From positions 1 through 64,000 of the IMG/VR virus record IMGVR_UViG_3300042691_014085: a DNA stretch of 64,000 nucleotides; one strand, written 5' to 3'. The translations under genes and the position numbers were made by a program. Source of the DNA: an uncultured virus (IMG/VR IMGVR_UViG_3300042691_014085). Taxonomy: Duplodnaviria; Heunggongvirae; Uroviricota; Caudoviricetes. This document shows, one piece after another, positions 1 to 19,708 of the stretch. Numbering within the stretch: position 1 is the stretch's first letter; each line of letters starts with the position of its first letter. Under the pieces are notes generated by a model that saw only the letters and a program-made list of their open reading frames with translations, ran no database searches and was not told the origin of the DNA.

Positions 1-76
1 AACAGAGGCAGTTTGAGAGTGTTCTCGCCTAATGTCCTAAGTAATAACTCTCAACTAAGAAAGGAAAACTAAGAAA

Positions 77-229
77 ATGGAAATCAGAGTAATCGTGTTT
101 GATGGCGATATCACTAGAGCAATCGCTAGAGAATCTTTCAGAAGTGTGAAAGAACTAGAAGACTTCATGGCAGTAGTGAAGCAACTAGACCCCAAAGCAA
201 AGTATTCACTATTGGAGGTAAAGAAGTGA
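77..229 (+). CDS. small early hypothetical protein (50 aa, not in ORF track)
   Basis: ATG after AGAAAGGA SD (58-65); TGA overlaps the GTG of the next ORF. Confidence 0.7.
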   Translation: MEIRVIVFDGDITRAIARESFRSVKELEDFMAVVKQLDPKAKYSLLEVKK

Positions 230-414
230 ACGAGGAACTATTAGCACCACTCTATGACCAAATGCTAGATGAAACGAATGAGCAGATAGTGATTGGGAAT
301 CTTCTGTATTCCCCGTCCGATGTTCTCAAAGCTGTTGATCCAATAGCCTATGAGCAAGGATTTCTTGATTACCTTGATTTCCTAATCACAGAAGATGAAA
401 GAAAATATCCATAA
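226..414 (+). CDS. hypothetical phage protein
   Basis: ORF with GGAGG SD; acidic small protein. Confidence 0.7.
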   Translation: MNEELLAPLYDQMLDETNEQIVIGNLLYSPSDVLKAVDPIAYEQGFLDYLDFLITEDERKYP

Positions 415-430
415 AAAATAAATAAAAAAA

Positions 431-458
431 TCGGCGTGTTGATTTGACAATGCGCCGA
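431..458 (+). terminator. GC-rich hairpin after first gene block
   Basis: TCGGCGTGTT...AATGCGCCGA imperfect inverted repeat. Confidence 0.4.
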
Positions 459-502
459 AAGCGCCCGAGGGCGAAATGTCCGTTTTGTCGGTTTACGTAC
501 GA

Positions 503-518
503 TGTGAGTTTTCTCACA
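503..518. promoter_or_regulatory. CRP/GlxR-type box
   Basis: perfect TGTGA-gttttc-TCACA upstream of promoter TTGATA(560)-N17-GATACT(583). Confidence 0.6.
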
Positions 519-619
519 AAACTTTTTTTCAAAATGTCCGTTTTGATCGCATTTTGGATTTGATATTTTTCTGAGTGTGTGAGATACTTACAGAGTAACA
601 GAAAAGAAAGGGGCAAAAA

Positions 620-778
620 ATGCTCACTGAAAAAAGGCTAGACATACTTATCCACGAATATAATGACGGGGGTATCCGTTCAGTATTTGGACTAACTAAC
701 TTTGAGCGAAGGGTGCTTATTCGCCACTTTGCTAAGACTAATCCTAAGTGCCCTTGTGATAAACCTCACAGGGCTTAG
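620..778 (+). CDS. small early hypothetical protein (52 aa, not in ORF track)
   Basis: ATG after AGAAAGGGG SD and promoter. Confidence 0.65.
   Translation: MLTEKRLDILIHEYNDGGIRSVFGLTNFERRVLIRHFAKTNPKCPCDKPHRA
755..770. promoter_or_regulatory. CRP/GlxR-type box
   Basis: perfect TGTGA-taaacc-TCACA upstream of TTGCTA(781)-N17-TAGACT(804). Confidence 0.6.
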
Positions 779-838
779 GCTTGCTATAAATAACTAAATC
801 CGCTAGACTTGCTACATAACCTAAAGAAAGGGGCTAAA

Positions 839-1006
839 ATGCCTACTTATACACTAACCGCAGAGTTTCACATTGAGGCAGACTTTGACGAGTTTCTATC
901 ACATGAAGAAAACTATGAGAATCTAATGATTCACATTGGAAACTCTCTACAGAATCCCGCTTTGGGAATCAACCTAATCAAAGTTACAGAAATAGAGGCA
1001 GACTAA
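839..1006 (+). CDS. hypothetical protein
   Basis: start moved to ATG 839 behind AGAAAGGGG SD. Confidence 0.7.
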   Translation: MPTYTLTAEFHIEADFDEFLSHEENYENLMIHIGNSLQNPALGINLIKVTEIEAD

Positions 1007-1118
1007 TGAATCTTGATGAATTCCGCCAATATGTAACGGCACAACGAAAAGAATCTATGGCGCAAGCCCTGACAGCCCTAACCGCTACAATAAATAACCC
1101 AACAGAAAAGGACAGCAA

Positions 1119-1319
1119 ATGAAAATCAGACACTCACTAGAGTTTGAAACTGAGTTTATCGGAGAATATGCGGAGACTATAATCTCACGCTATTCAGAAG
1201 AGCAAATAAATCACATTCTAGTTTCTATGCTTCACGACTTGGTAGTTCCTAGACTCCAACCAACACTAGACGAAATCAACGAAAACGGCTCATGGGCTAT
1301 TCTTAGGGTGGTAAAGTAG
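1119..1319 (+). CDS. hypothetical protein
   Basis: ORF with AAAGGA SD. Confidence 0.7.
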   Translation: MKIRHSLEFETEFIGEYAETIISRYSEEQINHILVSMLHDLVVPRLQPTLDEINENGSWAILRVVK

Positions 1320-1510
1320 TGATGACTAGAAAAGACTACATAAAAACCGCAGACATTCTAAAATCATTCTCGCAGGAGATTCATCCGCAAGTGTTTGAGG
1401 ATATTGTAGACATGTTCGCAGAATACTTTCATGGCGATAATGAAAACTTTGATAAAGCAAAGTTTGAAAAGCGTTGTGGTGTAGATGAGTTAGGACTCAT
1501 TGACGCATAA
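1319..1510 (+). CDS. hypothetical phage protein (MTRKDY..A..L type)
   Basis: coupled ORF; N-terminus and NENFD..KF motif typical of small phage early proteins. Confidence 0.7.
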   Translation: MMTRKDYIKTADILKSFSQEIHPQVFEDIVDMFAEYFHGDNENFDKAKFEKRCGVDELGLIDA

Positions 1511-1665
1511 TGTGGATTAGCCAAATAGCGACGCTAGCAACTCTTTTCATTCTTGCTTATAGTTTGACAGAGTTGTTAGCGATCCATACCGCCGAAAAAA
1601 TTGAAAAGAAAAATGTAGGAAAACAAACTAACTGGGATTAGACACGCCCGACTGCGCCCGAGGCG

Positions 1666-1686
1666 TTTTCCACAGGTTTATCCACA
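1666..1686 (+). promoter_or_regulatory. two DnaA boxes
   Basis: TTTTCCACA 1666-1674 and consensus TTATCCACA 1678-1686, next to a near-perfect CRP box at 1689-1704. Confidence 0.55.
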
Positions 1687-1803
1687 GCTGTGATTTACGT
1701 TACACTTTACGGCTTTCCCGAAACTTTTCCCAAAATTCGGCGTGTCGTTTTGATATTGTCGTAGGGCTGTGATAGGTTTGTCTTATTGGACGAAAGGAAA
1801 ACT

Positions 1804-1992
1804 ATGACCAACTGTATTATCTGTTCAGATTCAGGAGAGGTGTTCTACCTGTTTGATGATGAGTATGCTATTGAGTATTGCTCATGCGAGGCAGGATTTG
1901 AGAAATATGAGGAGCATGAGTTATACTTGCTTGATTCATTGTTAGAGCCTGTTACCGCAGGACAACTATTCACAACACCAGAAGCACGATAG
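1804..1992 (+). CDS. small Cys-containing hypothetical protein
   Basis: ATG 1804 behind CGAAAGGA; CxxC...CxC. Confidence 0.65.
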   Translation: MTNCIICSDSGEVFYLFDDEYAIEYCSCEAGFEKYEEHELYLLDSLLEPVTAGQLFTTPEAR

Positions 1993-2004
1993 AGAGGAAA
2001 TAAA

Positions 2005-2304
2005 ATGGGAAGCAACTTAGCAAATGAAATGGCAGATGGGACACTTTCTGACTTGGGTATCATGCTAGATATGGAAACACAGATGAGGATTCACCTGACT
2101 TCTAATCTATACCCTCCCGTCCCCACTATCATGATTCAGCCATGTATTGAGGCTATTGATGCCGTCAATGACGCAGGGCTTTGGAACTTGGAGATTCCAC
2201 TACCAGAAGGCGTGTTCTACAAATACCAGAATACTGCCCCTGCTCATGCTATTATTGAGAACCACCGCCTAGAGGCTTGGATTATTGAGAGAGAGGAAAT
2301 CTAA
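2005..2304 (+). CDS. hypothetical phage protein
   Basis: ORF with GAGAGG SD. Confidence 0.75.
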   Translation: MGSNLANEMADGTLSDLGIMLDMETQMRIHLTSNLYPPVPTIMIQPCIEAIDAVNDAGLWNLEIPLPEGVFYKYQNTAPAHAIIENHRLEAWIIEREEI

Positions 2305-2514
2305 ATGGAATACGCATACGCACTAACAACTTGGTATGACGATGAACTTGTATCAACACTTAGACTTCATGACTTCATGGAGGCTCATGATGCTTGGGCT
2401 AAGTGTAAGGACTATGGAAATGCGAAGGTATATGCTAGATATAATCTAACAGACCCAACAGGTAAAATGTTCACTAAGACTTTCTATGCGAATGGCGAGG
2501 TAGTTATAAAATGA
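2305..2514 (+). CDS. hypothetical protein
   Basis: coupled ORF. Confidence 0.7.
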   Translation: MEYAYALTTWYDDELVSTLRLHDFMEAHDAWAKCKDYGNAKVYARYNLTDPTGKMFTKTFYANGEVVIK

Positions 2515-2738
2515 CTGCTACAATAAACGACATGGAAACACGCTTTGCAGATCTCCTCTATCCTAATCAATTGATGGAGGGCGATCTAATCAAGGTTGAA
2601 GGTGAATTCTTCACTATCAAGAGTATCAATGAAGGCGATGAAGGGTGTAATGTCGCTATGCTTGATGAATATGAAGAAGTTATTGAAACATTCTTCTTTG
2701 ATGATGAGCAAGTTGAACTCTATGTATATGTAGAGTAA
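2511..2738 (+). CDS. hypothetical protein, possible SH3/KOW-like beta fold
   Basis: L.EGD.I.V.G pattern. Confidence 0.65.
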   Translation: MTATINDMETRFADLLYPNQLMEGDLIKVEGEFFTIKSINEGDEGCNVAMLDEYEEVIETFFFDDEQVELYVYVE

Positions 2739-2864
2739 AAGCTCCCCAAAGGGGCCCCGAGCCGTTTTGTCCGTTTTGCCCCCTTTACGTAGAAACACCT
2801 ATTTACGGCAAGTTGATATTTTTTCCCGAATCTGCTAAGCTTGGTTTATTCAGAAAGGGACACC

Positions 2865-3578
2865 ATGCTAAAAAGATCTATGGACAGAAAAGTTACTAAT
2901 GCCGTTTCACCTAATGGCAAGACACCTACTATTGCTAACACTTTCGGTCTACCCGCAGGAAAAGAATATTCATGTCCTGGACAGACACCTACATGCGCCA
3001 AAGTATGTTATGCGGGTAAGCTAGAAAAAATCTACAAAGGCGTTAGGGATGTTCTAATGCATAACTGGAATCTATTGAAAGATGAAGATATTCAAGGCAT
3101 GTATTCTCTACTTTCAGATATGATTGCAGAATTCAAGAAAGATTGTGTAAAGCGTAATGCTAAAATGTTATTCCGCATTCATTGGGACGGTGACTTCTTT
3201 AGTGATGAATATGCACGTGCATGGCGTTTAGTTATTGAAGAACAGCCTGACATTCAATTTTGGGTATATACACGTGTAGCTTCTGCAGCTAATATCCTCA
3301 AGGGTATTGATAACTTATCCTTATACTTCTCAACAGATCAAGATAACAAAGACATTGCCGTTACCCTCGCTAGCAAAGAAATAAGATTGGCATACCTTGC
3401 TGACACTTTCGCAATAGGGCAGGCAGACATGAAAGAGATGATTGGCAGGGTAGGGGCTAAGTGTCCTGAGAATAAGAAAGCTATTCCTCTCATATCAGAA
3501 AAGGGATCTGCTTGCGTATCGTGTGGCTTGTGCGTTTACCAAAAATCTGATATAGTGTTTAGCGCAAAGAAGAAATAA
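2865..3578 (+). CDS. Gp88-family radical-SAM-like Fe-S protein
   Basis: CPGQTPTCAKVCYA cluster motif, FRIHWDGDF, FWVYTR, C-terminal CPE..ACVSCGLC; start behind CAGAAAGGGA. Confidence 0.75.
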   Translation: MLKRSMDRKVTNAVSPNGKTPTIANTFGLPAGKEYSCPGQTPTCAKVCYAGKLEKIYKGVRDVLMHNWNLLKDEDIQGMYSLLSDMIAEFKKDCVKRNAKMLFRIHWDGDFFSDEYARAWRLVIEEQPDIQFWVYTRVASAANILKGIDNLSLYFSTDQDNKDIAVTLASKEIRLAYLADTFAIGQADMKEMIGRVGAKCPENKKAIPLISEKGSACVSCGLCVYQKSDIVFSAKKK

Positions 3579-3755
3579 GGGGGGCTATGCTAGAAGTAGT
3601 AATCCTAGGTCTAATATTCCTCATGCTATTGGGCTTGGGGGACAACAAGTGAATAATCTCAAAATATGAGAAATATCAGAAATAACTTGACGGACACAAA
3701 TGAATAATGCGATAATAATACTATGGCAACAACAACAAACAAAGGAGAAAGAAAA

Positions 3756-3926
3756 ATGGCAGTATCAGTAGCAACCTACAAGGTAGGCGATACCTACACC
3801 TCTCAAAAGAGCAAGGTCACAGGTATCATCAAGGAAATCATCCCAACAGACAAGAACACAGTTCGTGTGAAGTTGGATGTTGAGGGTAAGGTTCGTTGGA
3901 CTACTTGGAAGAACAAGTCTAACTAG
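3756..3926 (+). CDS. small basic SH3/KOW-like protein
   Basis: YKVGD...VTG.I pattern; paralog of 4532-4699. Confidence 0.7.
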   Translation: MAVSVATYKVGDTYTSQKSKVTGIIKEIIPTDKNTVRVKLDVEGKVRWTTWKNKSN

Positions 3927-3943
3927 TTTAGCAAACGCTAACG

Positions 3944-3974
3944 CCACCTGAGCAAGTGGAGGATAAACTGCTCA
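3944..3974 (+). ncRNA. 3'-UTR H-type pseudoknot, copy 1
   Basis: CCAC/GTGG stem, TGAGCA/TGCTCA second stem, TAAAC linker. Confidence 0.7.
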
Positions 3975-4035
3975 ACTTGATTTTATCTTGGCAAAATGCT
4001 AAGATTTATACCACCAAACAGAAAGGGAAAAACAA

Positions 4036-4458
4036 ATGGCAAGAAGCAAACCGATTAGCGTGAAAATCGCTACTGCTAAGGTTATCAAAGCCTTAGAAAC
4101 TAAGTTGGCACAAATCAAGGCTGACTATGCTAAGCAAGATGAGAACGAGGCTAAGTATAAGAAGGCTACTGAAAAGTGGGAAAAGGAAGTTGCTAAGTTA
4201 GCCGTATCACAAATCGCTAAGGCTAAAAATCTTCGCACAAGTTATCGTGCTTGGAATAATAATCTCAATGTTGATTTTGACTTAGACCTCAATGGGCTTG
4301 ATTTTCCAGAGCAACCTGAGCGTGAGCATGAGCAAATCCACCGCCACTCATATAACGAGATGGTAGAGGAACTTGAGAACGCTATTCGTATTCTCAAAAT
4401 GACGGATGAGGAAACAGTTTCCACATCTACATATAACGCTATCGCTCGTTATCTCTAA
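4036..4458 (+). CDS. hypothetical coiled-coil phage protein
   Basis: own promoter, ACAGAAAGGGA SD. Confidence 0.8.
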   Translation: MARSKPISVKIATAKVIKALETKLAQIKADYAKQDENEAKYKKATEKWEKEVAKLAVSQIAKAKNLRTSYRAWNNNLNVDFDLDLNGLDFPEQPEREHEQIHRHSYNEMVEELENAIRILKMTDEETVSTSTYNAIARYL

Positions 4459-4467
4459 ACGAGATTT

Positions 4468-4500
4468 GGTGCTGGGTATCACCTAAGGTAAAACTGCCCA
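4468..4500 (+). ncRNA. 3'-UTR H-type pseudoknot, copy 2
   Basis: GGTG/CACC stem, TGGGTA/TGCCCA second stem. Confidence 0.7.
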
Positions 4501-4531
4501 CAACAAAACACCTAACAGAAAGGAAAAGCAA

Positions 4532-4699
4532 ATGACTCTAGGAGGATACACATATCAGGTAGGAGATCTCTTCACTACTAGCAAAGTGGGAGTAACTGGA
4601 AGAATCAACTCTTTCACACCTATCCGTAGAAATGTAACTCGTGTAGGTCTAACACTTAGCAACGGCGCAAAGCGTTTCGCTATGGTAAAAACTTACTAA
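4532..4699 (+). CDS. small SH3/KOW-like protein (55 aa, not in ORF track)
   Basis: MTLGGYTYQVGDLFTTSKVGVTGRI...; ACAGAAAGGA SD; paralog of 3756-3926. Confidence 0.75.
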   Translation: MTLGGYTYQVGDLFTTSKVGVTGRINSFTPIRRNVTRVGLTLSNGAKRFAMVKTY

Positions 4700-4706
4700 A
4701 ACTAAA

Positions 4707-4734
4707 AGTCCTGAGCATGACTATAAACTGCTCA
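4707..4734 (+). ncRNA. 3'-UTR H-type pseudoknot, copy 3
   Basis: AGTC/GACT stem, TGAGCA/TGCTCA second stem. Confidence 0.7.
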
Positions 4735-4762
4735 CTTCCCCGCCAAATGGGGCCCGAGCTCT

Positions 4763-4778
4763 TGTGATCCTTCTCACA
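4763..4778. promoter_or_regulatory. CRP/GlxR-type box
   Basis: perfect TGTGA-tccttc-TCACA upstream of TTGTAT(4799)-N17-TAAACT(4822). Confidence 0.6.
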
Positions 4779-4853
4779 CGGGGGCTTTACGGGATAAGTT
4801 GTATTTTTCCCAGATTAGTGCTAAACTTGGTATATACAGAAAGGAAACCACCA

Positions 4854-5117
4854 ATGAGCGCAACAGCGTTAGCAATAGCAGAAGCAAGCAAGGAAGCATT
4901 ACATTCACCAGATGTAGTAAGCGCAGTCAAATACATATTAGAGAATAAGAATATTCTTTCTGAAGAAGAAATGATGAGAGAAATGTTTGTTTACTCAACA
5001 CATCTAACAGCACTAACAGCACATCTTGTTACATCAGTATTATTGACTGAGGAACAGTTTGACGCTATGCTTGATGAGGTTAGAGAGTTTGATGAACTTG
5101 GAAAGGAAATGGAATAA
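4854..5117 (+). CDS. hypothetical protein
   Basis: start moved to ATG 4854 behind ACAGAAAGGA. Confidence 0.75.
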   Translation: MSATALAIAEASKEALHSPDVVSAVKYILENKNILSEEEMMREMFVYSTHLTALTAHLVTSVLLTEEQFDAMLDEVREFDELGKEME

Positions 5118-5575
5118 TGCAAGACACACAACTAACAACACTGTACGTCAACTATCTCGTGGAGGGCTTGGAGCAAAAACCTACTGGAGAGATTGTGCAC
5201 CATATGCTTACTAAGCATGACATCAATGAGATGTTTCGTAAGAAGCAGTTTACTGAGTCATTCCTAGCAGCCGCTGAAAAAAAGTTAGCACAGATTCAAG
5301 ACAATCTAACTGCAGATGGCTGGTATAACTCTGATACCTCAAAAGAAGACGTTCTTAGTCAACTTTGCGAGATTATTGGCTATGAAGCAAAAACAACTCT
5401 CAACTGGGTTGCAACAATCAAAGTTGAAGGCAGCACTGAGGTACCGCTGAATGAAGTTGATTCATTTGATTTGCGTTATTTCTTGAATGATGATTTGACG
5501 GTAGACATTTACCATGGCGATACCGTTATCAACTCTCACTATGTTGATGACATAGATATGGAGGAATGGGAGTAA
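5117..5575 (+). CDS. hypothetical acidic protein
   Basis: coupled ORF. Confidence 0.75.
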   Translation: MQDTQLTTLYVNYLVEGLEQKPTGEIVHHMLTKHDINEMFRKKQFTESFLAAAEKKLAQIQDNLTADGWYNSDTSKEDVLSQLCEIIGYEAKTTLNWVATIKVEGSTEVPLNEVDSFDLRYFLNDDLTVDIYHGDTVINSHYVDDIDMEEWE

Positions 5576-5731
5576 CAAATAATCTTGGGCCCTGGGATCT
5601 GTGGTGGTGTCCTGGGGCCCCCGCTAATTAACTCGGGGGCGATTTGTCCTATATGTCCGATTTACGATTTACGATTTGTATTCCCAGATTTTGTGTGCTA
5701 AGATTGCTATAACTAACAGAAAGGTAATAAA

Positions 5732-6748
5732 ATGGCTCATGAACTAGAAACTCAAAACGGTGTTGCATCTTTTGCATCTTTCCGTGAACCTGCATGGCAT
5801 GGTTTAGGAACAGTATTTACAGAAGAAAAGAACACCGCAGAAATGTTGGCTGCTGCTAACCTAAATAACTGGAATGTTCGTCTTGTAGATGTTGAGATTC
5901 CTAACACCCTTACATCAGATAAGTCTTATCAATATGTTGTAAGAACTAATCCTACTAACAATAACCAGACAGATGTTTTGGGTGTTGTAGGTGAGCGATA
6001 TGTTCCATTGCAGAATGAAGACCTATTCGCATTTGGCGATAACATTCTAGATGGTGGCGGTAGATGGGAGACCGCTGGCTCAATCAAGGGTGGTCGTGTA
6101 GTATTTGGCTCTCTTGCTCTTGAGCGTGAGACAGTGCTAGACCCTAGCGGTGTTTCGGATAAGGTCAAGACTTATCTTCTCATCAACACATCACATGATG
6201 GCTCTATTGCTATTCAAGCATCTATCACGCCAGTGCGTGTTGTATGCGCTAACACTCTCAATCTTGCATTGGGTAGTAAGCGTGGCAAGAATGCAATCAA
6301 GCAATCATTCAAGATTCGTCACACACAATCTGCTAATGGTCGTGTGCAGATTGCTCGTGAGACTCTTGGTCTTGCTAATAAATACATGGATGCTTTTGAT
6401 CTCATGGCTAAGACCATGATTGAGAAAGAAATCACAGCGCAACAGTTCAACGACATTGTGCTTGCGATTTATCCTAAGCCAGAAGATGAGAAGAAAATCG
6501 CTCTCACTAAGTGGCAAAATAAGATTGACCTCATCAATGATATTTACACAGGTGAATATAACGGGATGATTGCTAACACCGCATGGGGTGCAATGAATGC
6601 TCTAACCGAAAGATTAGATTGGCATCGTTCTGCTCGTGGTGGTAGTAATGAATCCGTCCTTGCTGCTGCTTCTGGTTTTGATGCTTCTATCACTGCAGAA
6701 AAGAATCGCATATTGCAAACAGTGCAGAATGTGCTAGCGATTGCATAA
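5732..6748 (+). CDS. DUF932 / TIGR03299 phage-plasmid protein
   Basis: PAWHGLG, Y.PLQN..LF, ETAGS..GG, NTSHDGS, TPVRVVCANTL, IRHT motifs. Confidence 0.9.
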   Translation: MAHELETQNGVASFASFREPAWHGLGTVFTEEKNTAEMLAAANLNNWNVRLVDVEIPNTLTSDKSYQYVVRTNPTNNNQTDVLGVVGERYVPLQNEDLFAFGDNILDGGGRWETAGSIKGGRVVFGSLALERETVLDPSGVSDKVKTYLLINTSHDGSIAIQASITPVRVVCANTLNLALGSKRGKNAIKQSFKIRHTQSANGRVQIARETLGLANKYMDAFDLMAKTMIEKEITAQQFNDIVLAIYPKPEDEKKIALTKWQNKIDLINDIYTGEYNGMIANTAWGAMNALTERLDWHRSARGGSNESVLAAASGFDASITAEKNRILQTVQNVLAIA

Positions 6749-6758
6749 GTAAATCGCA

Positions 6759-6786
6759 ACTCCTGAGCAAGAGTATAAACTGCTCA
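6759..6786 (+). ncRNA. 3'-UTR H-type pseudoknot, copy 4
   Basis: ACTC/GAGT stem, TGAGCA/TGCTCA second stem. Confidence 0.7.
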
Positions 6787-6817
6787 CTTTTTCATGCGAT
6801 CATGGGGCCCCGAGTCG

Positions 6818-6833
6818 TGTGATTTTTGTCACA
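6818..6833. promoter_or_regulatory. CRP/GlxR-type box
   Basis: perfect TGTGA-tttttg-TCACA upstream of TTGCTT(6884)-N17-GATAAT(6907). Confidence 0.6.
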
Positions 6834-6937
6834 GCTCATTACGTACTAGATTAGATTTTTCCCAAATCTTTATTACGTTGACCTTGCTTTTTTCCCCCAA
6901 ATATGGGATAATAAAATATCTCACAGAAAGGGAAATA

Positions 6938-7093
6938 ATGCTAGGATATATAGAAACAGATGTAAGAGATATGATTGATGCTCTTGATTCTGTGCTTACG
7001 ACTATCAACTCAGATGATGACCCATGGTTATATAATAATACTTTTAGAGCCAAGGACCTATTAGAAGGTTTGTTAGCAGAGGGGCATATCTAA
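6938..7093 (+). CDS. hypothetical protein
   Basis: start moved to ATG 6938 behind ACAGAAAGGGA. Confidence 0.7.
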   Translation: MLGYIETDVRDMIDALDSVLTTINSDDDPWLYNNTFRAKDLLEGLLAEGHI

Positions 7094-7215
7094 TGCTACA
7101 GCTTGATGAGTTTATTTGTTATAACTGTCTTGAAGAAGACCTTATAGATCTAATGTGTAATACTTACGAGGGTAAATGTAATACCTGCTGTAACTGTGGG
7201 TGTGGACATATCTAA
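7093..7215 (+). CDS. Cys-rich microprotein (40 aa, 8 Cys; not in ORF track)
   Basis: TAATG coupling; MLQLDEFICYNC...KCNTCCNCGCGHI. Confidence 0.55.
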   Translation: MLQLDEFICYNCLEEDLIDLMCNTYEGKCNTCCNCGCGHI

Positions 7216-7437
7216 TGTGGGGTAAGTCACACTCCTATACCTTGCCAAATACCACCAAATATGCGATACTTGGAATATCAAACAGAAAGGATATAACATG
7301 GATGTAATAGTCACTATTTGCTACTCTACTGATGACGAGGATGTAAATGCCTCTGTGTCTAGTCTCTTAGACAATACCCTGCCTTATATGGCAGACAATG
7401 TAGATGTTGTCTGGAACATTATTGGAGAAGATAACTA

Positions 7438-8169
7438 ATGCCAAACTGGGTATTCAATAATCTAATGATTCAGGATTCAAACCCTGAAACTGTTCATCTC
7501 ATCAAGGACCAACTCAATCGTCCATTTGAGAGGACATACCAGCATAACTGGAATGTACAAACACAACAGTTTGAACCTAAGACTGTAAAATATAATAATC
7601 CTATATTTTCATTCTGGAATATCAAGGCTCCTACTGATATAGAGGCTTATGAGAAGCAGACTGATTATTCTTCCCCCACCCCTTATTCAGGTAATGATTG
7701 GTATTCCTTCAATAACCGTGAATGGGGTACTAAGTGGGATGTTGCTGTGCCAGATGAAGGTGGCGATAGTGATACCTGTATGACTGACTTCAAAGCAGAC
7801 GGTGTGGATAACTGGGTGGGGTATAGATTTGATACCGCTTGGGCTCCGCCTGTACAGGCTATGTTACATCTATCTAATCAGTATCCAACTGCTGTACTAA
7901 CTCTAACTTGGGAAGAAGAGCAGGGGTTTGGTGGGGAGATAGAGTTTGTGGCAGGTGAAGTCACATCTGATATGTCTTATGAATCACGCTGTAGAGACTG
8001 TGATGAGTATGATTGTTTAGAGTATTGTGATGACTGTGGCGAGAATATTTGCAATAAATGCCACTATATGGGTGAGGTAGACCTAGAGGCAGTTGCGGAA
8101 TGCGACACTCATAAGGTATTCTTGACTCCTGAGTTTGTACCTGACTATAGATTGGAGAAACTAAAGTGA
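7438..8169 (+). CDS. DUF1281/YubB ferredoxin-like domain protein with C-terminal Cys-rich region
   Basis: MPNW.FN, WY.FN.REWGTKWD, FDTAWAPP motifs. Confidence 0.8.
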   Translation: MPNWVFNNLMIQDSNPETVHLIKDQLNRPFERTYQHNWNVQTQQFEPKTVKYNNPIFSFWNIKAPTDIEAYEKQTDYSSPTPYSGNDWYSFNNREWGTKWDVAVPDEGGDSDTCMTDFKADGVDNWVGYRFDTAWAPPVQAMLHLSNQYPTAVLTLTWEEEQGFGGEIEFVAGEVTSDMSYESRCRDCDEYDCLEYCDDCGENICNKCHYMGEVDLEAVAECDTHKVFLTPEFVPDYRLEKLK

Positions 8170-8610
8170 CCAAAGCAGAACTAAAGAAACTCATGGCTAA
8201 GTATGACTATGAGTATGATAATGACGGACAGATAATCTTCTACACAGGGTGGTATGAAACCAATGACGGAGAACTAACAACAGAGCCACAGGAGGATGAA
8301 GATGACCTTTGATGAAATGGTAGCGCAGGTGCTACCTATATTCCCTAATGCTATCTTTGGCGAGATTGACGGCGAGATTGTTGTATCAACAGGCTCACAA
8401 CTCATCAACGATGAAGTAATCCCATTAGAGGATTATAATGTCTGACCAATACATGGAATATGTCAAACTACATATGCTTAGTTTGGAACAAGACATGCAG
8501 AAGTTAGAGTCTGAGGATATTGTTCCTTATAGGCAACTGGAGGCTGCTTGGTCTACCGCTGCACATTTGCTAGCAGTATATAGTGATATCAAATACAATG
8601 GAAGGGAATC

Positions 8611-8907
8611 ATGATTATCGCAACAGAGTTAGATGACCATGTTCAAAAGGCTGTGGACGCAGGTTTGTCTGGTTTGCATATTCTCCATGGTGAGATGAAC
8701 CGCATGCTTGTGGAGGCGGAGGAAGAACTAATCCTAGCACAGGAAGAAGAGGAGCGTTCTGGAGAAGCAATGGACTCCATGGAGCGAAGGTATTGGGAAG
8801 GACAGTGTGACGCTATCCAGGCCCTCTATACGCTTGCATATGGGCTCTCTTTTGCTATAGGTGAAGAATCTCCCAAGGCTTTTAGAACTCCAGGGGAAAG
8901 GGCATAG
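8611..8907 (+). CDS. hypothetical protein
   Basis: ORF with AAGGGA SD. Confidence 0.7.
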   Translation: MIIATELDDHVQKAVDAGLSGLHILHGEMNRMLVEAEEELILAQEEEERSGEAMDSMERRYWEGQCDAIQALYTLAYGLSFAIGEESPKAFRTPGERA

Positions 8908-9047
8908 AATGGATGACTATTGTGATCATGTATATGATTCATACTGTCCCAAATGCGGGATTGAGGGGGAAGAATAATGTGGGAGCAGTTGACACTACCG
9001 CTGGATTTTGATAACATGAAACAAACTAACAGAGAGGAAGAATAACC

Positions 9048-9416
9048 ATGGGAGCACGTTGTACATTTGTATTCAAACAGTCAGAGGAGCAGGCTGTAGC
9101 GCTTTATAGTCATTGGGGCGAAGACTCCATGTATGTTGATTTGGCTGGGGCATTGCAACATGCTAAGCCACGTATTGATATGCCAGATGTAGCATATGGG
9201 ACACGTATGGCAATCAGTTACTTTCTTCAAGATGAACTAATGTCAGCGACGGGATATGGAATCTATGCATGCAATCCTAATGATTTAGGTTTCATGGACC
9301 ACCCAGTTATCATTGATTTAGTAAATAAGACTGTTGAAGATGATACTGGAACGCATTCAATAGATGAGTTTATTACATATCATCTAGCAAAGGAAAGGTT
9401 TCTAACGAAAGCCTAG
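9048..9416 (+). CDS. conserved hypothetical phage protein
   Basis: MGAR...LYSHWG pattern; own TTGACA promoter. Confidence 0.75.
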   Translation: MGARCTFVFKQSEEQAVALYSHWGEDSMYVDLAGALQHAKPRIDMPDVAYGTRMAISYFLQDELMSATGYGIYACNPNDLGFMDHPVIIDLVNKTVEDDTGTHSIDEFITYHLAKERFLTKA

Positions 9417-9476
9417 GAGTGGTGACCCTAGGCACGAGGGTAGAGCGCAGGTCATCCTTTCGCTTGCGCTCCCCTC
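9411..9476 (+). ncRNA. two-hairpin structured element with anti-SD loop
   Basis: GCCTAGG/CCTAGGC hairpin then GAGGG-GAGCGCAGG/CTTGCGCTC-CCCTC hairpin with loop TCATCCTTTCG. Confidence 0.5.
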
Positions 9477-9500
9477 ACTTATTTGATAGACTGGAGGGCT

Positions 9501-9734
9501 ATGAGACGACTACGACTACCAACAAGCCAAGAAGAGAGGGTAGCAAAAAGTATTGGCAAACTACTATCTGACTTTCATTTAGATTTAGAGCAGGTAGGAA
9601 AATATATTGCTCACGCATTACCGCATACTATTTATGTGAGAGCAGTAGAAGTTTTGGAGGCTAGCCAATACAACAAAGAAGTTGCTGAGTATAACGAACG
9701 CAATAAGTATTATCAGCAAGAGCGTTTGTTCTAG
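9501..9734 (+). CDS. hypothetical protein
   Basis: ATG 9501 behind GGAGGG. Confidence 0.7.
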   Translation: MRRLRLPTSQEERVAKSIGKLLSDFHLDLEQVGKYIAHALPHTIYVRAVEVLEASQYNKEVAEYNERNKYYQQERLF

Positions 9735-9741
9735 TTATAAA

Positions 9742-9769
9742 TCACGGTGCCCCCGCAGGGGTGCCGTGA
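9742..9769 (+). terminator. strong hairpin closing the early region
   Basis: TCACGGTGCCCC-cgca-GGGGTGCCGTGA. Confidence 0.55.
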
Positions 9770-9913
9770 AAGCCCCCGAGGTCAAACCATACAAATCGGA
9801 CATTTACGACATTAAGAAAAATTTCCCAAAATGTTATTACGAACGATCATAAAAAAATCCCAGAAGTTTATCAAACTTTTTAATATTTGTCAAACAGTGA
9901 TATACTTTTATGT

Positions 9914-10186
9914 ATGACCGATATTGACAAACAATTTGATATCCTAGCTAGCTTCTATCTTAATTATAAGGATGATTCTAATACTAGGGAATTTATAGAG
10001 TTTAATGATATTGGACTACCCCTCGCATTTTTGACGGCAGAGGGATTATGTCAACCAACAGAAATAGCTCTCATATATGTCCAAGAAACCTTTGCTATGC
10101 TATTGGCTACATTGGGTATAGAGGATACAGGGTTTAATAATCTTGATCATATGTTAGCTACCGCCGAAAAAGCGGGGGAAAAATAA
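9914..10186 (+). CDS. hypothetical phage protein
   Basis: FIEFNDIGLPLA motif; ATG just after TGATATACT -10. Confidence 0.7.
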   Translation: MTDIDKQFDILASFYLNYKDDSNTREFIEFNDIGLPLAFLTAEGLCQPTEIALIYVQETFAMLLATLGIEDTGFNNLDHMLATAEKAGEK

Positions 10187-10348
10187 TGTCACCTAGAAAC
10201 TATTTCTTCCAATCTCAAAACAATCCATACTTCCAATCACACGAGTATAAACAAAGCAAGGAATATAGGTTTGAACAAAAGGCAGAAAGATTATTTGGCC
10301 GAATTTGGCGGGGGATTAAGAAGATCCTCTGGCCCTTCTAGTATAAAA

Positions 10349-10660
10349 GACATTACGAACGACCTCTAAAAAATCCCTGAAAGTTTTCAAACATTTTCAA
10401 ACATTTCTATATTGTTTTATAACATTTTGTTATATTTCTCATATGTTTTCAAACATTTTTATATGGTTTTATATGGCATATTTGGGGATATAAAGGTTTG
10501 ACAATATAGGATGTTTGTGGTATAAGGTTTGGACATTACGAAGCCGCCTGTCTAAGATGCTTCATTCTCCACTTCTCTCCACTTTCCTCCACAAATAATA
10601 CATCATAAAAATATCAGTAACATTTATCTGTGGATAAACCTGTGCATAACTTGTGGAAAA
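10349..10660. other. candidate replication origin / DnaA-bound region
   Basis: non-coding AT-rich stretch with TTTTCAAACA repeats, ATTACGAA repeats and three co-oriented DnaA boxes 10629-10660. Confidence 0.5.
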
Positions 10661-10693
10661 CTCCATCATTTACAATGCTGTATAATGGTTTTG

Positions 10694-10906
10694 ATGAAGA
10701 GAAAACTCAAAGATGGCAGGGAAGTTGAAGAATTAGACGAGCCCATAGCCCTTATCATATGGACAAAAGTACCAGAGAAATGGGAAATAACAGACCTAGA
10801 AAATGGCAAGGTTTTCTTGGGCAATAAGGAAAAACATCCATCTTTTGCTAGTATGTTATTACAACGTGTGAATCTAGGACGTATAGGGCAATGGAAGAGA
10901 ATGTAG
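10694..10906 (+). CDS. hypothetical phage protein
   Basis: TKVPEKW..TDLE.G..F.G pattern. Confidence 0.7.
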   Translation: MKRKLKDGREVEELDEPIALIIWTKVPEKWEITDLENGKVFLGNKEKHPSFASMLLQRVNLGRIGQWKRM

Positions 10907-11038
10907 CTTATTACGAATACCTCGCAAAAATTCGTAAAGATAATAAACAGTTGTTTGAAAAATGTCAAGTATGTTCAAAACCATCAATAACCGTAGAATC
11001 AGATGGATATAAGATTTATCCTGTTTGCCAAGACCATA

Positions 11039-11227
11039 TTAGGGTAGATTAGTTTCTTCCTTATAGGATTCTTCACATAGGGGACAATAGGAGTTATAAG
11101 GTTTCTTATTCATACCCCCCAAAAATGCACGACCTTGCTCGTGTAGATCAAGATGAATATAATCTAACTTACCATACAAAATAGGTACGAGCTTTGTGCG
11201 ACACTTTGGGCAATTGCTAATAAACAT
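11039..11227 (-). CDS. small zinc-ribbon protein
   Basis: CPKC...LVPILYG...CPLC. Confidence 0.7.
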   Translation of the reverse strand: MFISNCPKCRTKLVPILYGKLDYIHLDLHEQGRAFLGGMNKKPYNSYCPLCEESYKEETNLP

Positions 11228-11282
11228 TACGATAGTCTATCATAGGTTTGCAGGATGTAGCAAATTGTTATATAATAGGGAT

Positions 11283-11474
11283 ATGTTTAATTCTAGAGGA
11301 ATCCCAACTGCTGCGTGTCCATGCTGTGGCTCATCGCTTATCCGCATTACCGCTCAGTTTGATCCCAACAGCTATGAATTAATATCATATCTATTAGACG
11401 ATGCTCAATGTGCTGATTGCCAGTGCCTTCTTACTGCGCCAACACCACTAGATCATCCAGAGGCGGTTTTATGA
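11283..11474 (+). CDS. small zinc-ribbon protein
   Basis: RGIPT.ACPCCG...CADC..LLTAPTP; leaderless-type start. Confidence 0.7.
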   Translation: MFNSRGIPTAACPCCGSSLIRITAQFDPNSYELISYLLDDAQCADCQCLLTAPTPLDHPEAVL

Positions 11475-12046
11475 GAATATTAGTTTTGGCGCAAAGCCGT
11501 TCAGGTTCAACAAGTCTTTCTGCTTGGCTCAAATCTGAAACAGGCGAAGAAGTTATGTTGGAACCCTTTAACCCACATGCTAACACAGAAGAGCAGTTGG
11601 CAGCACAGTTAGAATGGGTTAACTCAGATAGAGGTCTTATCCTTAAGTTTGTTGATAATATGTTTCTTCAGGTCAATGCAATTGAATCTGTAGATTGGCT
11701 TATGTCAAAGTTTGACAAAGTAATAGGATTAACAAGAGAAGATGATGACGCTTGCGCTTATAGCAGACTAGTTGCACATCTTGCAAATGATTACAGAGGA
11801 TCTGCAGATACAGCCGAAGTAGATAACATGGTCATTAATCAAAATGCCGATCTTCTCTCATCTTACAAGACACATGCAGCAACTCAAAAGGCATACATTC
11901 GTAACCTTGATATTTTTCAGATTACATTTGAAGAGCTTTATGAGCAGCAGGATGCAAGCAGGCTTATTGAATATCTTGGCATTACCCCCACAAATCTAGA
12001 TTATTTGTTTGAGAATAAGAATCAGACCAATAACTGGAATATCTAA
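11471..12046 (+). CDS. sulfotransferase-like P-loop protein
   Basis: SRSGSTSL PAPS-binding loop, EPFN, ITFEEL. Confidence 0.65.
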   Translation: MRILVLAQSRSGSTSLSAWLKSETGEEVMLEPFNPHANTEEQLAAQLEWVNSDRGLILKFVDNMFLQVNAIESVDWLMSKFDKVIGLTREDDDACAYSRLVAHLANDYRGSADTAEVDNMVINQNADLLSSYKTHAATQKAYIRNLDIFQITFEELYEQQDASRLIEYLGITPTNLDYLFENKNQTNNWNI

Positions 12047-14916: not shown

Positions 14917-14990
14917 GGAACAGTAGCTTAGTTGGTTAAAGCCCCGAACTCATAATTCGGTCATCGTAGGTTCAAGTCCTACCTGTTCCA
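14917..14990 (+). tRNA. tRNA-Met or tRNA-Ile2 (CAU)
   Basis: full cloverleaf, CCGAA-CTCATAA-TTCGG; G1-C72 paired, so not initiator. Confidence 0.9.
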
Positions 14991-14995
14991 CGTTT

Positions 14996-15069
14996 GGAAT
15001 GCGGCTGGCTGGTGGTCAGAAGGTGTCTTATAAGCATCTTGGAGTTTGGTTCAATTCCAAAGCATTCTA
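14996..15069 (+). tRNA. tRNA-Ile (UAU)
   Basis: GGAATGC/GCATTCT acceptor, GGTGT-CTTATAA-GCATC anticodon arm, TTCAATT T-loop. Confidence 0.8.
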
Positions 15070-15071
15070 CT

Positions 15072-15144
15072 GTCCCTATAGCTCAGTTGGTAGAGCAGCA
15101 GACTTTTAATCTGCGGGTCCTTGGTTCAAACCCAAGTGGGGACA
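15072..15144 (+). tRNA. tRNA-Lys (UUU)
   Basis: canonical cloverleaf, GCAGA-CTTTTAA-TCTGC. Confidence 0.95.
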
Positions 15145-15148
15145 CTGA

Positions 15149-15221
15149 GCCCCTATAGCCCAGCGGTAGAGGCAGACGACTTAAAATCGTCCAAGCGTTG
15201 GTTCAAATCCAACTAGGGGTA
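15149..15221 (+). tRNA. tRNA-Leu (UAA), short variable arm
   Basis: GACGA-CTTAAAA-TCGTC; 5-nt variable region. Confidence 0.9.
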
Positions 15222-18356: not shown

Positions 18357-18429
18357 TGGTCTGTAGCTCAGTTGGTAGAGCGTCGCACTGTTAATGCGAA
18401 TGTCGCAGGATCGTGCCCTGCCAGACCAG
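18357..18429 (+). tRNA. tRNA-Asn (GUU)
   Basis: cloverleaf TCGCA-CTGTTAA-TGCGA; atypical T-loop ATCGTGC. Confidence 0.85.
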
Positions 18430-18433
18430 CTGA

Positions 18434-18507
18434 GGTCCATTAGCTCAGTTGGTTAGAGCGCTTCCCTGTCACGGAAGAGGTCGTCAGTTCAAGTCTGATA
18501 TGGATCG
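18434..18507 (+). tRNA. tRNA-Asp (GUC)
   Basis: CTTCC-CTGTCAC-GGAAG. Confidence 0.95.
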
Positions 18508-18511
18508 CCCA

Positions 18512-18584: not shown

Positions 18585-18613
18585 CGGGGAAACCCACTTA
18601 TATAAGGAGAAAG

Positions 18614-19701: not shown

Positions 19702-19708
19702 CCCTACA

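What the first reader, a model, noticed from the sequence alone, without database searches (positions are those of the whole stretch)
3928..6786. Four covarying H-type RNA pseudoknots immediately 3' of stop codons
Seen: consensus S1(4 bp)-C-TGRGYA-W-S1'-N1-5-TAAA(A)C-TGCYCA at 3944, 4468, 4707 and 6759. Stem 1 differs in every copy yet always pairs (CCAC/GTGG, GGTG/CACC, AGTC/GACT, ACTC/GAGT). Stem 2 covaries too (TGAGCA/TGCTCA versus TGGGTA/TGCCCA, with a G-U pair, which points to RNA). All lie 7-17 nt after a stop codon. Three are preceded by a small hairpin at or next to the stop (3928-3941, 4451-4465, 6738-6757). Inference: a compact functional RNA such as a 3'-exonuclease block, a processing or termination signal, or a protein-binding decoy. 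I cannot name a family for it.
Basis: partly seen in the sequence, partly recalled or inferred. Interest (0 to 1): 0.8.

Follow-up and report, generated by a model that had tools for sequence, protein, structure and literature searches.

The report
Tiny RNA pseudoknot capping phage genes
Four phage genes here are each followed, a few bases after the stop codon, by the same tiny knotted RNA fold, which is found in many unrelated phages and mobile elements, matches no catalogued RNA family, and probably protects the end of the upstream message, though its function has not been tested.

Summary
The window holds exactly four copies, all on the coding strand: 3944-3974, 4468-4500, 4707-4734 and 6759-6786. 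Each is a 28-33 nt H-type pseudoknot: S1 (3-5 bp, variable, C-G next to the loop), C, UGAGCA, W, S1', N(0-7)AAAC, UGCUCA.

Both stems covary. In a stratified 149-sequence alignment, 96.7% of pair cells are standard pairs, against 77% in shuffles and 26-38% with slid partners. One-sided scans of viral contigs show compensated changes at all four inner S2 pairs. The frequent U.G wobbles point to RNA of this strand. The one-base loop C is nearly invariant.

The motif occurs in well over a hundred viral contigs, in cultured phages (SIO1, Amigo, KC5a, StB12) and in mobile DNA of many bacterial phyla. Rfam and my paper searches gave nothing. This scan has already reported the same motif on other DNA.

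Two features stand out:
- The knot core never lies closer than about 9 nt to a long ORF's stop codon, and it piles up at that limit.
- tRNAs, hammerhead cleavage sites or the DUF2800 RNA often start 1-13 nt after it, and never just before it.

The function is untested.

The parts
3944..3974 (+). Pseudoknot copy 1. S1 3944-3947/3956-3959 (CCAC/GTGG); L1 C 3948; S2 3949-3954/3969-3974 (TGAGCA/TGCTCA); L3 3960-3968.
   Evidence: Sequence; pattern search of the whole record; covariance model E 5.1e-06.
4468..4500 (+). Pseudoknot copy 2, the variant copy. S1 4468-4471/4480-4483 (GGTG/CACC, with the rare G-C pair at the junction); L1 C 4472; S2 4473-4478/4495-4500 (TGGGTA/TGCCCA, one G-C swap and one U.G wobble); L3 is 11 nt.
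   Evidence: E 1.6e-4. At the orthologous site, relatives carry other S1 and S2 sequences that still pair.
4707..4734 (+). Pseudoknot copy 3. S1 4707-4710/4719-4722 (AGTC/GACT); L1 C 4711; S2 4712-4717/4729-4734.
   Evidence: E 1.7e-10.
6759..6786 (+). Pseudoknot copy 4. S1 6759-6762/6771-6774 (ACTC/GAGT); L1 C 6763; S2 6764-6769/6781-6786.
   Evidence: E 1.2e-10. Near-identical copies occur in viral contigs L121 and L395; the L395 copy has a C-to-U change that gives U.G.
3723..3926 (+). Upstream gene of copy 1 (67 aa, no family). Its TAG stop is at 3924-3926, with 21 nt between the stop and the L1 C.
4036..4458 (+). Upstream gene of copy 2 (140 aa, no family, ends ...NAIARYL*). Its TAA stop is at 4456-4458, with 13 nt to the L1 C.
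4532..4699 (+). Upstream gene of copy 3 (55 aa, no family). Its TAA stop is at 4697-4699, with 11 nt to the L1 C.
5732..6748 (+). Upstream gene of copy 4 (338 aa, DUF932 / phrog_1221). Its TAA stop is at 6746-6748, with 14 nt to the L1 C.
   Evidence: 9.7e-100; PF06067, 8.4e-48.
3928..3941 (+). Small hairpin before copy 1 (5 bp). A local feature, not part of the family motif.
4445..4463 (+). Small hairpin with the TAA stop in its loop, before copy 2 (6 bp). A local feature.
6737..6757 (+). Small hairpin with the TAA stop in its loop, before copy 4 (6 bp). A local feature.

Best explanation
Each element is transcribed as part of the mRNA of the gene before it. It folds into a compact H-type pseudoknot:
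- A 3-5 bp stem S1.
- An 8-nt loop (C-UGAGCA-W), six bases of which pair with UGCUCA downstream to form S2.
- A single, nearly invariant C that crosses the deep groove of S2.
- An A-rich strand ending in AAAC that runs along the groove of S1.

Proposed function (inferred): the knot is the 3'-terminal cap of the upstream cistron. The long early transcript is cut a few bases downstream by RNase P at a tRNA, by a hammerhead, or by a host endonuclease. Alternatively, 3'-to-5' exonucleases chew in from further downstream. In either case the exonucleases stop at the knot, so the coding region and its stop codon stay intact and translatable.

The knot sits at the shortest distance at which a ribosome halted on the stop codon need not unwind it: at least 9 nt from the stop to the loop C, with S1 starting 4-6 nt after the stop. 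This leaves almost no naked RNA between ribosome cover and the knot.

Shown: the fold (by covariation), the strand, the spacing rule, and what lies downstream. Inferred: the exonuclease block, the cutting step in this phage, and the tertiary contacts.
For: Structure:
- Pair counts: 96.7% of 1,490 pair cells are standard pairs, against 77.2% in shuffles (0 of 500 shuffles as high) and 26-38% with slid partners. The alignment has 149 sequences and is a stratified sample.
- S2 position 3 not A: 122 of 122 are G. The partner is C in 114 and U in 8.
- S2 position 5 not C: 127 of 127 are U. The partner is G in 91 and A in 33.
- S2 position 2 not G: 104 of 121 are compensated.
- S2 position 4 not G: 123 of 125 are compensated.
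- At the orthologous site after the same gene, relatives carry other S1 and S2 sequences that still pair.
- The loop C differs in only 2 stretches of the whole viral collection.

Anchoring to the upstream gene:
- Among 165 instances with an ORF of at least 50 codons ending nearby, the distance from stop to loop C starts sharply at 9 nt (8 nt: 3; 9: 39; 10: 21; 11: 10). In all, 108 lie at 9-15 nt.
- The distance to the next gene is broad.

Cutting sites just downstream:
- A tRNA starts 3-13 nt after the knot in 14 of 221 instances. None ends within 40 nt before it.
- In phage Amigo the order is the SSB gene, the knot, then a tRNA 2-3 nt later.
- In L140 two successive units read stop, knot, type III hammerhead. 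The ribozyme's predicted cut lies 5-6 nt after the knot.
- Four of 215 instances have such a hammerhead.
- The DUF2800 RNA starts at +1 in L033, L154, L163 and L192.

Other points:
- The first 6 nt after the knot hold only 6.5% G, against about 22% further on.
- The motif occurs in phages and mobile DNA of many phyla, so the partner must be universal. Ribosomes and 3' exonucleases both are.
Against: - No transcript ends were seen. The single RNA run held only contigs of relatives.
- In this window no tRNA, ribozyme or terminator follows any of the four copies, so the cutting step is assumed here.
- Only about 12% of instances have a recognisable cutting site or structured RNA right after the knot (and the DUF2800 cases).
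- In 73 of 218 instances the next gene starts within 60 nt, so many knots sit inside polycistronic RNA.
- Some tiny ORFs have their stop codon inside the knot, followed by an ordinary terminator. There a 3' cap seems redundant.
- A plain stability element would not obviously need a nearly invariant loop C and the AAAC.
Confidence: 0.5

Rival explanations
1. A ribosome-directed gene-end device. The knot docks at the mRNA entrance of the terminating ribosome. It acts as a stop for read-through, frameshifted or sliding post-termination ribosomes. Alternatively, it shields downstream RNA folds (tRNA, ribozymes, the next ribosome-binding site) from translation of the upstream gene.
For: - The spacing equals that of frameshift-stimulating knots. 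S1 starts 4-6 nt after the stop, with a hard limit of 9 nt to the core and a pile-up at that limit.
- Structured RNAs or the next ribosome-binding site often follow closely.
- In some tiny ORFs the stop codon lies inside the knot.
- Ribosomes are universal, which fits the spread over many phyla.
Against: - No known bacterial precedent is at hand.
- The spacing is explained just as well by 'as close as possible without being unwound'.
- No extended ORF or slippery site is seen in the window. In-frame stops follow within 2-11 codons.
- The strict order of knot before tRNA is more simply explained by 3'-end protection.
Confidence: 0.2
2. A recognition or catalytic RNA. The knot would be a very small self-cleaving ribozyme, or the specific binding site of a conserved nuclease, another protein or a small ligand. 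It would then mark the processing site rather than passively block decay.
For: - It occurs in many phyla, is a pseudoknot, and has near-invariant unpaired bases: the loop C, and AAAC, whose last C varies in only 39 stretches. These are the criteria that Weinberg et al. 2017 give for 'sophisticated' RNAs (PMC5737381; I read passages only).
- It occupies gene boundaries like the hammerheads of prophages (PMC3088659, passages).
- The 6 nt after it are depleted of G.
Against: - At 28 nt it is smaller than any known self-cleaver (from my own knowledge).
- Where a hammerhead or tRNA follows, a cutting activity is already present.
- No Rfam ribozyme or riboswitch matches it, even at E up to 10.
- Its position relative to the downstream gene is not fixed, which argues against a riboswitch.
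Confidence: 0.15
3. A 5'-to-3' barrier in the manner of the xrRNAs of eukaryotic viruses. It would stop RNase J, or RNase E scanning from upstream, and so protect the downstream cistron.
For: Compact knots are what stall Xrn1 in plant and flaviviruses (from my own knowledge, and the abstract of PMC10321173 in the listing). Some knots lie just before highly expressed scaffold and capsid genes.
Against: - The position is fixed relative to the upstream stop, not the downstream start.
- A barrier placed directly before a tRNA or a hammerhead protects nothing downstream.
- No Rfam xrRNA family matches.
Confidence: 0.07
4. A DNA-level element: a recombination or cassette junction, a protein operator, or a single-stranded DNA fold.
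For: - It lies at the boundaries of accessory genes typical of mobile DNA: ArdA, DUF932, DUF3768, DUF2958, SSB.
- The same short sequence in unrelated phages could serve as microhomology for gene shuffling.
Against: - It is strand-specific relative to the genes: 4 forward and 0 reverse in this record.
- U.G wobbles are common (91 of 127 and 8 of 122). They would be A.C mismatches on the other strand.
- The spacing between the two S2 halves is variable, which does not suit a dimeric DNA-binding protein.
Confidence: 0.03
5. A transcription terminator or pause signal.
For: It lies at the ends of genes. U is slightly enriched just after it (35% at +1 to +6).
Against: - There is no U-tract rule.
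- Terminator-like sites lie within 80 nt in only 20 of 219 instances, and none follows the four copies here.
- Downstream genes, tRNAs and ribozymes must be transcribed through it.
Confidence: 0.03

Closest known systems
Intercistronic and 3'-terminal mRNA stabiliser structures of bacteria and phages (REP hairpins; the 3' hairpins left by RNase III cuts between phage T7 genes). Named from my own knowledge.
   Same: They sit after a cistron inside a long transcript. They are thought to stop 3'-to-5' exonucleases, so the upstream message outlives the rest.
   Different: Those are simple, long hairpins without a conserved tertiary core and without a fixed distance to the stop codon. This element is a 28-nt pseudoknot with near-invariant loop bases and a ribosome-sized spacing rule, and it spreads over many phyla.
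Compact luteovirus-type H-type pseudoknots (frameshift stimulators) and the T2/T4 gene 32 leader pseudoknot. Named from my own knowledge.
   Same: Very small two-stem knots with a 1-2 nt first loop crossing the deep groove. The second loop is A-rich and lies in the groove of stem 1. The distance of the knot from the ribosome's A-site codon is like that of frameshift signals.
   Different: Here there is no slippery site and no overlapping or extended ORF. The element lies after a stop codon, not in a coding overlap or a 5' leader. Its sequence is unrelated, and S2 is the long stem (6 bp).
Hammerhead 'punctuation' of prophage and phage operons (Perreault et al. 2011, PMC3088659; I read passages only).
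   Same: The same kind of loci: single accessory genes such as ardA in mobile DNA are flanked by small RNA elements at gene boundaries. In L140 the knot and a type III hammerhead form one unit.
   Different: The hammerhead cuts, whereas the knot has no known catalytic core. The knot always comes first, 5-12 nt before the predicted cut. This suggests complementary roles (cap plus cutter), not the same role.
Exoribonuclease-resistant RNAs (xrRNAs, coremin motif) of eukaryotic RNA viruses.
   Same: Small pseudoknotted folds whose task is to halt a processive exonuclease.
   Different: Those block the 5'-to-3' enzyme Xrn1 and protect what lies downstream. This element is tied to the upstream gene and would face 3'-to-5' enzymes. 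No Rfam xrRNA model matches.

Membership tests
Any Rfam 15 family | A match to a curated covariance model | tested here: not met
   At gathering thresholds only 7 tRNAs are found in the window. With E up to 10 over 3850-6900, the three weak hits all lie elsewhere. In 60 related loci the motif itself is never hit.
Programmed -1 frameshift signal (luteovirus type) | A slippery heptamer 5-9 nt upstream and an overlapping ORF in the -1 frame | tested here: not met
   The knots follow real stop codons. No ORF continues through them in any frame.
Programmed -1 frameshift signal (luteovirus type) | A compact H-type knot with a short first loop and an A-rich second loop | tested here: met
   L1 is 1 nt, S2 is 6 bp and L3 ends in AAAC. 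The pairs are supported by covariation.
Stop-codon read-through signal (retrovirus type) | A knot about 8 nt after the stop, plus a long in-frame ORF beyond it | tested here: not met
   The spacing is similar, but in-frame stops follow within 2-11 codons of all four stops.
Intrinsic (Rho-independent) terminator | A G+C-rich hairpin followed directly by a run of U | tested here: not met
   The scan reports no terminator-like site at or after the four copies. In the wide set, 20 of 219 have one within 80 nt.
preQ1-I type riboswitch (small H-type knot with an A-rich tail) | It lies in a 5' leader and controls the ribosome-binding site or a terminator of the downstream gene, and it matches the family model | tested here: not met
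   No Rfam match. The distance to the next gene is broad, while the distance to the upstream stop is fixed.
Pistol or hammerhead self-cleaving ribozymes | The conserved catalytic core and extra helices of the family | tested here: not met
   No Rfam hit on the motif. Where present, hammerheads are separate elements downstream. Self-cleavage itself cannot be tested with these tools.
xrRNA (exoribonuclease-resistant RNA) | It halts a processive exonuclease in vitro and has a ring-like fold around the entering strand | not testable with these tools
   Only the position argues for a 3'-side barrier. No xrRNA model matches.
Type III toxin-antitoxin RNA (ToxI-like) | Tandem direct repeats of about 36 nt next to an endoribonuclease toxin gene | tested here: not met
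   The copies are dispersed (3.9-6.8 kb) behind four different genes, not in tandem. None of the flanking genes I scanned in 2005-9413 matched a nuclease family in PHROGs, or (10 of the 13) in Pfam.

The most novel reading that the evidence does not exclude
The knot is not a passive plug. It would be an active, universal gene-end module gauged by the ribosome. In one version it works with the terminating ribosome, as a two-way barrier that ends both translation and decay. That would let mobile DNA express single genes from chopped-up transcripts in any host. In the other version it is itself the smallest natural self-cleaving or ligand-sensing RNA. The near-invariant loop C, the AAAC, the G-free tail, the exact 9-nt limit and the tiny ORFs that stop inside the knot would all then be functional contacts.
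Probability: 0.15. Interest if true: 0.9.

Novelty: new variant of a known kind. Interest (0 to 1): 0.7.

Why it matters
If this reading is right, many phages and mobile elements across bacterial phyla share a portable 28-nt signal that sets the end of a message and protects it. The signal is independent of transcription terminators. That would add a missing piece to how long phage transcripts become stable single-gene messages, alongside RNase P sites and hammerheads.

It would also have practical uses:
- A very small, host-independent stabiliser for synthetic operons.
- A simple sequence mark for gene ends and coding strand in uncultured phage genomes.

The exact spacing rule is also a natural read-out of how far a terminating ribosome reaches along the mRNA. 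Because the element is short, common and present in cultured phages, the decisive experiments are easy.

Tried and rejected
- RNA-seq: the one run offered (X1, a freshwater metatranscriptome, share 0.07) held only assembled contigs of relatives that were 85-99% alike. These cannot show transcript ends, so no conclusion was drawn.
- Megablast of 3000-8000 against the phage collection: no match.
- Rfam: no match to the motif.
- Promoter and terminator scan of 1-12000: counts at chance level, with nothing at the knots.
- The fifth 'half site' at 28588 is not a knot.
- Upstream hairpin as part of the motif: rejected, 39 of 217 against 41 of 217 at a control position.
- In-frame use of the knot's UGA as a back-up stop: no excess. 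Distances that put it in frame (11, 14, 17, 20 nt) account for 23 of 165 instances.
- tRNA-like acceptor mimic with a 3' CCA: CCA is the commonest triplet after the knot (14 of 111). Most of these cases are related phages with a tRNA just downstream, so I did not pursue it.
- Selenocysteine or read-through reading of the tiny ORFs: what follows the UGA is not consistent between loci.
- Integron attC-like site: no complementary core and far too short.
- Literature: searches by sequence words and by topic and passages of five papers gave no description of this motif. The supplementary list of about 10,000 candidate RNAs of PMC10690425 was not read and could contain it.
- Reciprocal test (how many hammerheads are preceded by the knot) was too sparse: 1 of 151 genomes of one order had any hammerhead. 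In that genome 2 of 3 hammerheads follow a knot.
- E. coli complete genomes: no match for one common S1 version. This is a narrow test and does not show absence.


Full report
**What is in the window**

The window belongs to a 75,969-base virus record that CheckV estimates to be 70% complete.
- It encodes a tailed-phage gene set: DnaB-like helicase, primase, SSB, a large DNA polymerase, a UvsX-like recombinase, a Cas4-like exonuclease, large terminase and endolysin.
- It carries seven tRNAs.
- I saw no phage RNA polymerase.
- Bases 1 to about 23,000 carry many small + strand genes.

The genes are at 3723-3926, 4036-4458, 4532-4699 and 5732-6748. The last is a DUF932 protein; the other three match no family.

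**Checking the observation**

The four copies read exactly as reported. S1 starts 17, 9, 7 and 10 nt after the stop codons.

Tests against chance:
- The pattern CTGRGYA-N5-18-AAACTGCYCA occurs four times forward and never in reverse in the whole record. The pattern read backwards does not occur.
- A covariance model scanned over the window without filters finds only these four (E 1.2e-10, 1.7e-10, 5.1e-06, 1.6e-04). The next hit has E 0.13 and is not a knot. The four copies were in the model's training alignment.

Two cautions:
- The 3' half alone is not significant: 5 found against 3.3 expected.
- H-type geometry as such is common by chance: 576 loose hits on one strand.
- The case therefore rests on shared sequence plus covariation.

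**The motif elsewhere**

Viral contigs.
- Of the 136 matches, 84 have a gap of exactly 7 nt and 21 a gap of 9 nt.
- Gap lengths of 14-17 nt have 3 matches or fewer each, and these look like chance hits in coding sequence.
- In 66 of the 84 gap-7 matches, the four bases before the C pair with the four bases after TGAGCA-W. Most of the rest have 3 pairs.

Bacterial and archaeal genomes.
- Contiguous S1 pairs number 3 in 48 loci, 4 in 44, 5 in 15, 6 or 7 in 7, and fewer than 3 in 4.
- Two to three of these loci are CRISPR arrays with the motif inside a spacer.

Cultured phages with the motif:
- Roseophage SIO1, 11 nt after the ribonucleotide reductase gene.
- Arthrobacter phage Amigo and its cluster, after the SSB gene, with a tRNA 2-3 nt later.
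- Lactobacillus phage KC5a and Staphylococcus phage StB12, between the minor head protein and scaffold genes.
- Others, including Lentibacter, Bacillus megaterium, crAss-like and cyanophage records.

Other checks:
- Rfam has no match.
- My literature searches found no description (passages read).
- This scan has reported the same motif before on other DNA. I treated those notes as leads only.

**Is the pseudoknot real?**

S1 varies freely and keeps pairing.
- In 111 non-identical canonical instances, the pair next to the loop is C-G in 110.
- The second pair is mostly U-A or A-U.
- The third pair takes all four Watson-Crick types.

S2 could not be judged from scans that fixed its sequence. I therefore scanned the viral collection with one side of one pair forced to be non-canonical and the partner left free.

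| S2 position forced | Matches | What it became | Partner |
|---|---|---|---|
| 3, not A | 122 | G in all 122 | C in 114, U in 8 |
| 5, not C | 127 | U in all 127 | G in 91, A in 33, U in 2, C in 1 |
| 2, not G | 121 | A, U or C | 104 Watson-Crick (A-U 94, U-A 6, C-G 4), 17 unpaired |
| 4, not G | 125 | A, C or U | 123 paired (A-U 106, C-G 10, U-A 7), 2 A.C |

I then built a 149-sequence alignment from the four window copies plus 29 drawn at random from each of the five scan sets. It is a stratified sample, not a natural one. On it, the named two-helix structure has:
- 96.7% of 1,490 cells paired, against 77.2% in shuffles (0 of 500 as high);
- 26-38% paired with slid partners;
- a covariation score of 0.546 against 0.18.

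The many U.G pairs would be A.C on the opposite strand. The fold therefore belongs to RNA (or at least to this strand), which is the coding strand in all four cases.

A direct example lies in the window itself. The gene ending ...NAIARYL* is followed by GGUG/CACC with UGGGUA/UGCCCA here. In relatives the same site carries UCUC/GAGA or UUUC/GAAA with UGAGCA/UGCUCA.

Unpaired bases are also constrained:
- The loop C differs in only 2 stretches of the whole viral collection, and only one of them has a good S1.
- The C of AAAC differs in 39 stretches: A in 23, G in 16, never U.
- The base between S2 and S1' is U in 64, A in 39 and C in 8.
- The six bases after the knot hold 6.5% G, against about 22% further on.

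**Position rules**

Distance to the upstream stop codon. I took the 165 instances where an ORF of at least 50 codons ends nearby and counted the bases between the stop codon and the loop C.

| Bases from stop to loop C | Instances |
|---|---|
| 8 | 3 |
| 9 | 39 |
| 10 | 21 |
| 11 | 10 |
| 12 | 13 |
| 13 | 11 |
| 14 | 8 |
| 15 | 6 |

- Four instances lie at 0-8 nt.
- Eight have the stop inside the knot, and in six of these the stop is the UGA of UGAGCA.
- Forty-five lie further away.
- The onset is sharper when measured to the loop C than to the start of S1 (4 nt: 8; 5: 23; 6: 32).

From established knowledge of the bacterial ribosome (not tested here), about 5 nt after an A-site codon lie inside the mRNA channel. 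On that basis, S1 begins right at the channel entrance of a ribosome halted on the stop codon. This is the same geometry as in frameshift signals.

Distance to the next gene. This is broad: of 218 instances, 3 lie at 0-15 nt, 41 at 16-30, 29 at 31-60, 31 at 61-120, 38 at 121-250, and 76 have none found.

Terminators. Terminator-like sites follow within 80 nt in 20 of 219 instances, against 2 of 216 at a control position.

**What follows the knot**

- tRNAs: one starts 3-13 nt after the knot in 14 of 221 instances. None ends within 40 nt before it.
- Hammerheads: in L140 two successive units read stop, knot, type III hammerhead, ribosome-binding site, ORF. By my reading of the ribozyme's stems, it cuts 5-6 nt after the knot. 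Similar hammerheads follow in L008, L188 and L235. That makes 4 convincing cases among 5 pattern hits in 215 instances, against 1 at the control.
- DUF2800 RNA: the Rfam family begins at the base after the knot in L033, L154, L163 and L192.
- In this window nothing of the kind follows the four copies. Copies 3 and 4 are followed by a separate G+C-rich repeated element.

**Which genes carry it**

- In bacterial loci, 12 of 61 upstream ORF fragments matched Pfam: ArdA, DUF3768 (3), DUF7249 (2), DUF2958 (2), an antirepressor and a minor capsid protein.
- In the window, the one named family is DUF932.
- In cultured phages, the genes are SSB, ribonucleotide reductase and a minor head protein.
- Many of these are early or accessory genes of mobile DNA.

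**Interpretation**

The element is tied to the gene before it. It stays outside the reach of the terminating ribosome, but only just. Where anything recognisable follows, it is a site where the RNA is cut.

The simplest mechanism is a 3' cap. After the cut, or after decay from further downstream, 3'-to-5' exonucleases stop at a small, mechanically tough knot, and the upstream cistron keeps its stop codon. The conserved loop bases would then serve the tertiary fold. A loop C in the deep groove and adenines in the groove of S1 are known from the small luteovirus knots (my own knowledge, not tested here).

I give this reading about 0.5. Against it:
- No transcript ends were seen.
- No cutter is evident in this phage.
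- Many knots lie inside polycistronic RNA.
- Some tiny ORFs end inside the knot and have their own terminator.

Rivals, with my odds:
- A ribosome-directed stop or insulator (0.2).
- A recognition or catalytic RNA (0.15).
- A 5'-side barrier (0.07).
- A DNA-level element (0.03).
- A terminator or pause signal (0.03).

**Novelty**

The fold class and the idea of a protective 3' structure are known. This family, its near-universal spread in mobile DNA and its ribosome-gauged spacing are not described in Rfam or in the papers I could search. I therefore class it as a new variant of a known kind. The finding is of high interest mainly because it is common, sharply defined and easy to test.

Noticed in passing
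window 4748-4853, 5590-5731, 6803-6880: A second repeated intergenic element in three copies. It consists of TGGGGCCC(C), a hairpin, TTTACG, and TTTTTCCCAGATT followed by an extended -10-like TGnTATA box before the next ribosome-binding site. It is probably a phage promoter or regulatory region. Its folding energies are not unusual (z -0.3 to -1.6).
   Followed up: partly
L161, L175, L187, L204, L208, L234, L239, L250, L172, L177, L240, L151, L202, L211, L153 (bacterial MAG contigs), about 60 nt before and into the motif: A family of free-standing 20-22 aa genes with their own promoter, a strong ribosome-binding site and a terminator. The peptide pattern is M(K/R)..P(R/H)xAHCxxGC...S. The stop codon is the UGA inside the knot's UGAGCA, or a TAG 3 nt before it. 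Third-codon-position changes are synonymous, which suggests real coding. Neither Pfam nor NCBIfam matches at threshold.
   Followed up: partly
L135, L148, L156, L169, L201, L237, L249 (Candidatus Saccharibacteria): A conserved leader: a promoter-like TGTGCTACAAT, then a possible 14-codon upstream ORF whose stop lies in the knot's A-rich loop. After the knot, 8 nt later, come a ribosome-binding site and a 138-aa gene that looks like a pentapeptide-repeat protein (by eye, not scanned).
   Followed up: partly
L033 285-445, L154 626-786, L192 626-785, L163 443-600 (-): The Rfam DUF2800 RNA (RF02960, function unknown) starts at the very next base after the knot in four loci from different sources. 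Its first bases resemble the 5' strand and cut site of a hammerhead.
   Followed up: no
L140 560-1000 (-), a Polynucleobacter MAG contig: Two tandem units of stop codon, knot, type III hammerhead, ribosome-binding site and a 60-aa ORF. The first knot is a U-A variant of S2. A third hammerhead in the same genome (L744) has no knot before it.
   Followed up: yes
L167 536-1197, L231 26-517, L166 561-677: CRISPR arrays (9, 7 and at least 2 repeats) in bacterial MAGs. One spacer in each contains the knot sequence, so hosts target phage regions that carry it.
   Followed up: yes
window 14917-15221 and 18357-19780: Seven tRNA genes in two clusters on the + strand. None is preceded by the knot in this phage, unlike in several other phages.
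   Followed up: no
window 20790-22205 (+) and 34670-36310 (-): Two Nol-like carbamoyltransferase genes (phrog_1601). Methyltransferase, dehydrogenase and glycosyltransferase-like genes lie nearby. Together they suggest a sugar or DNA modification module.
   Followed up: no
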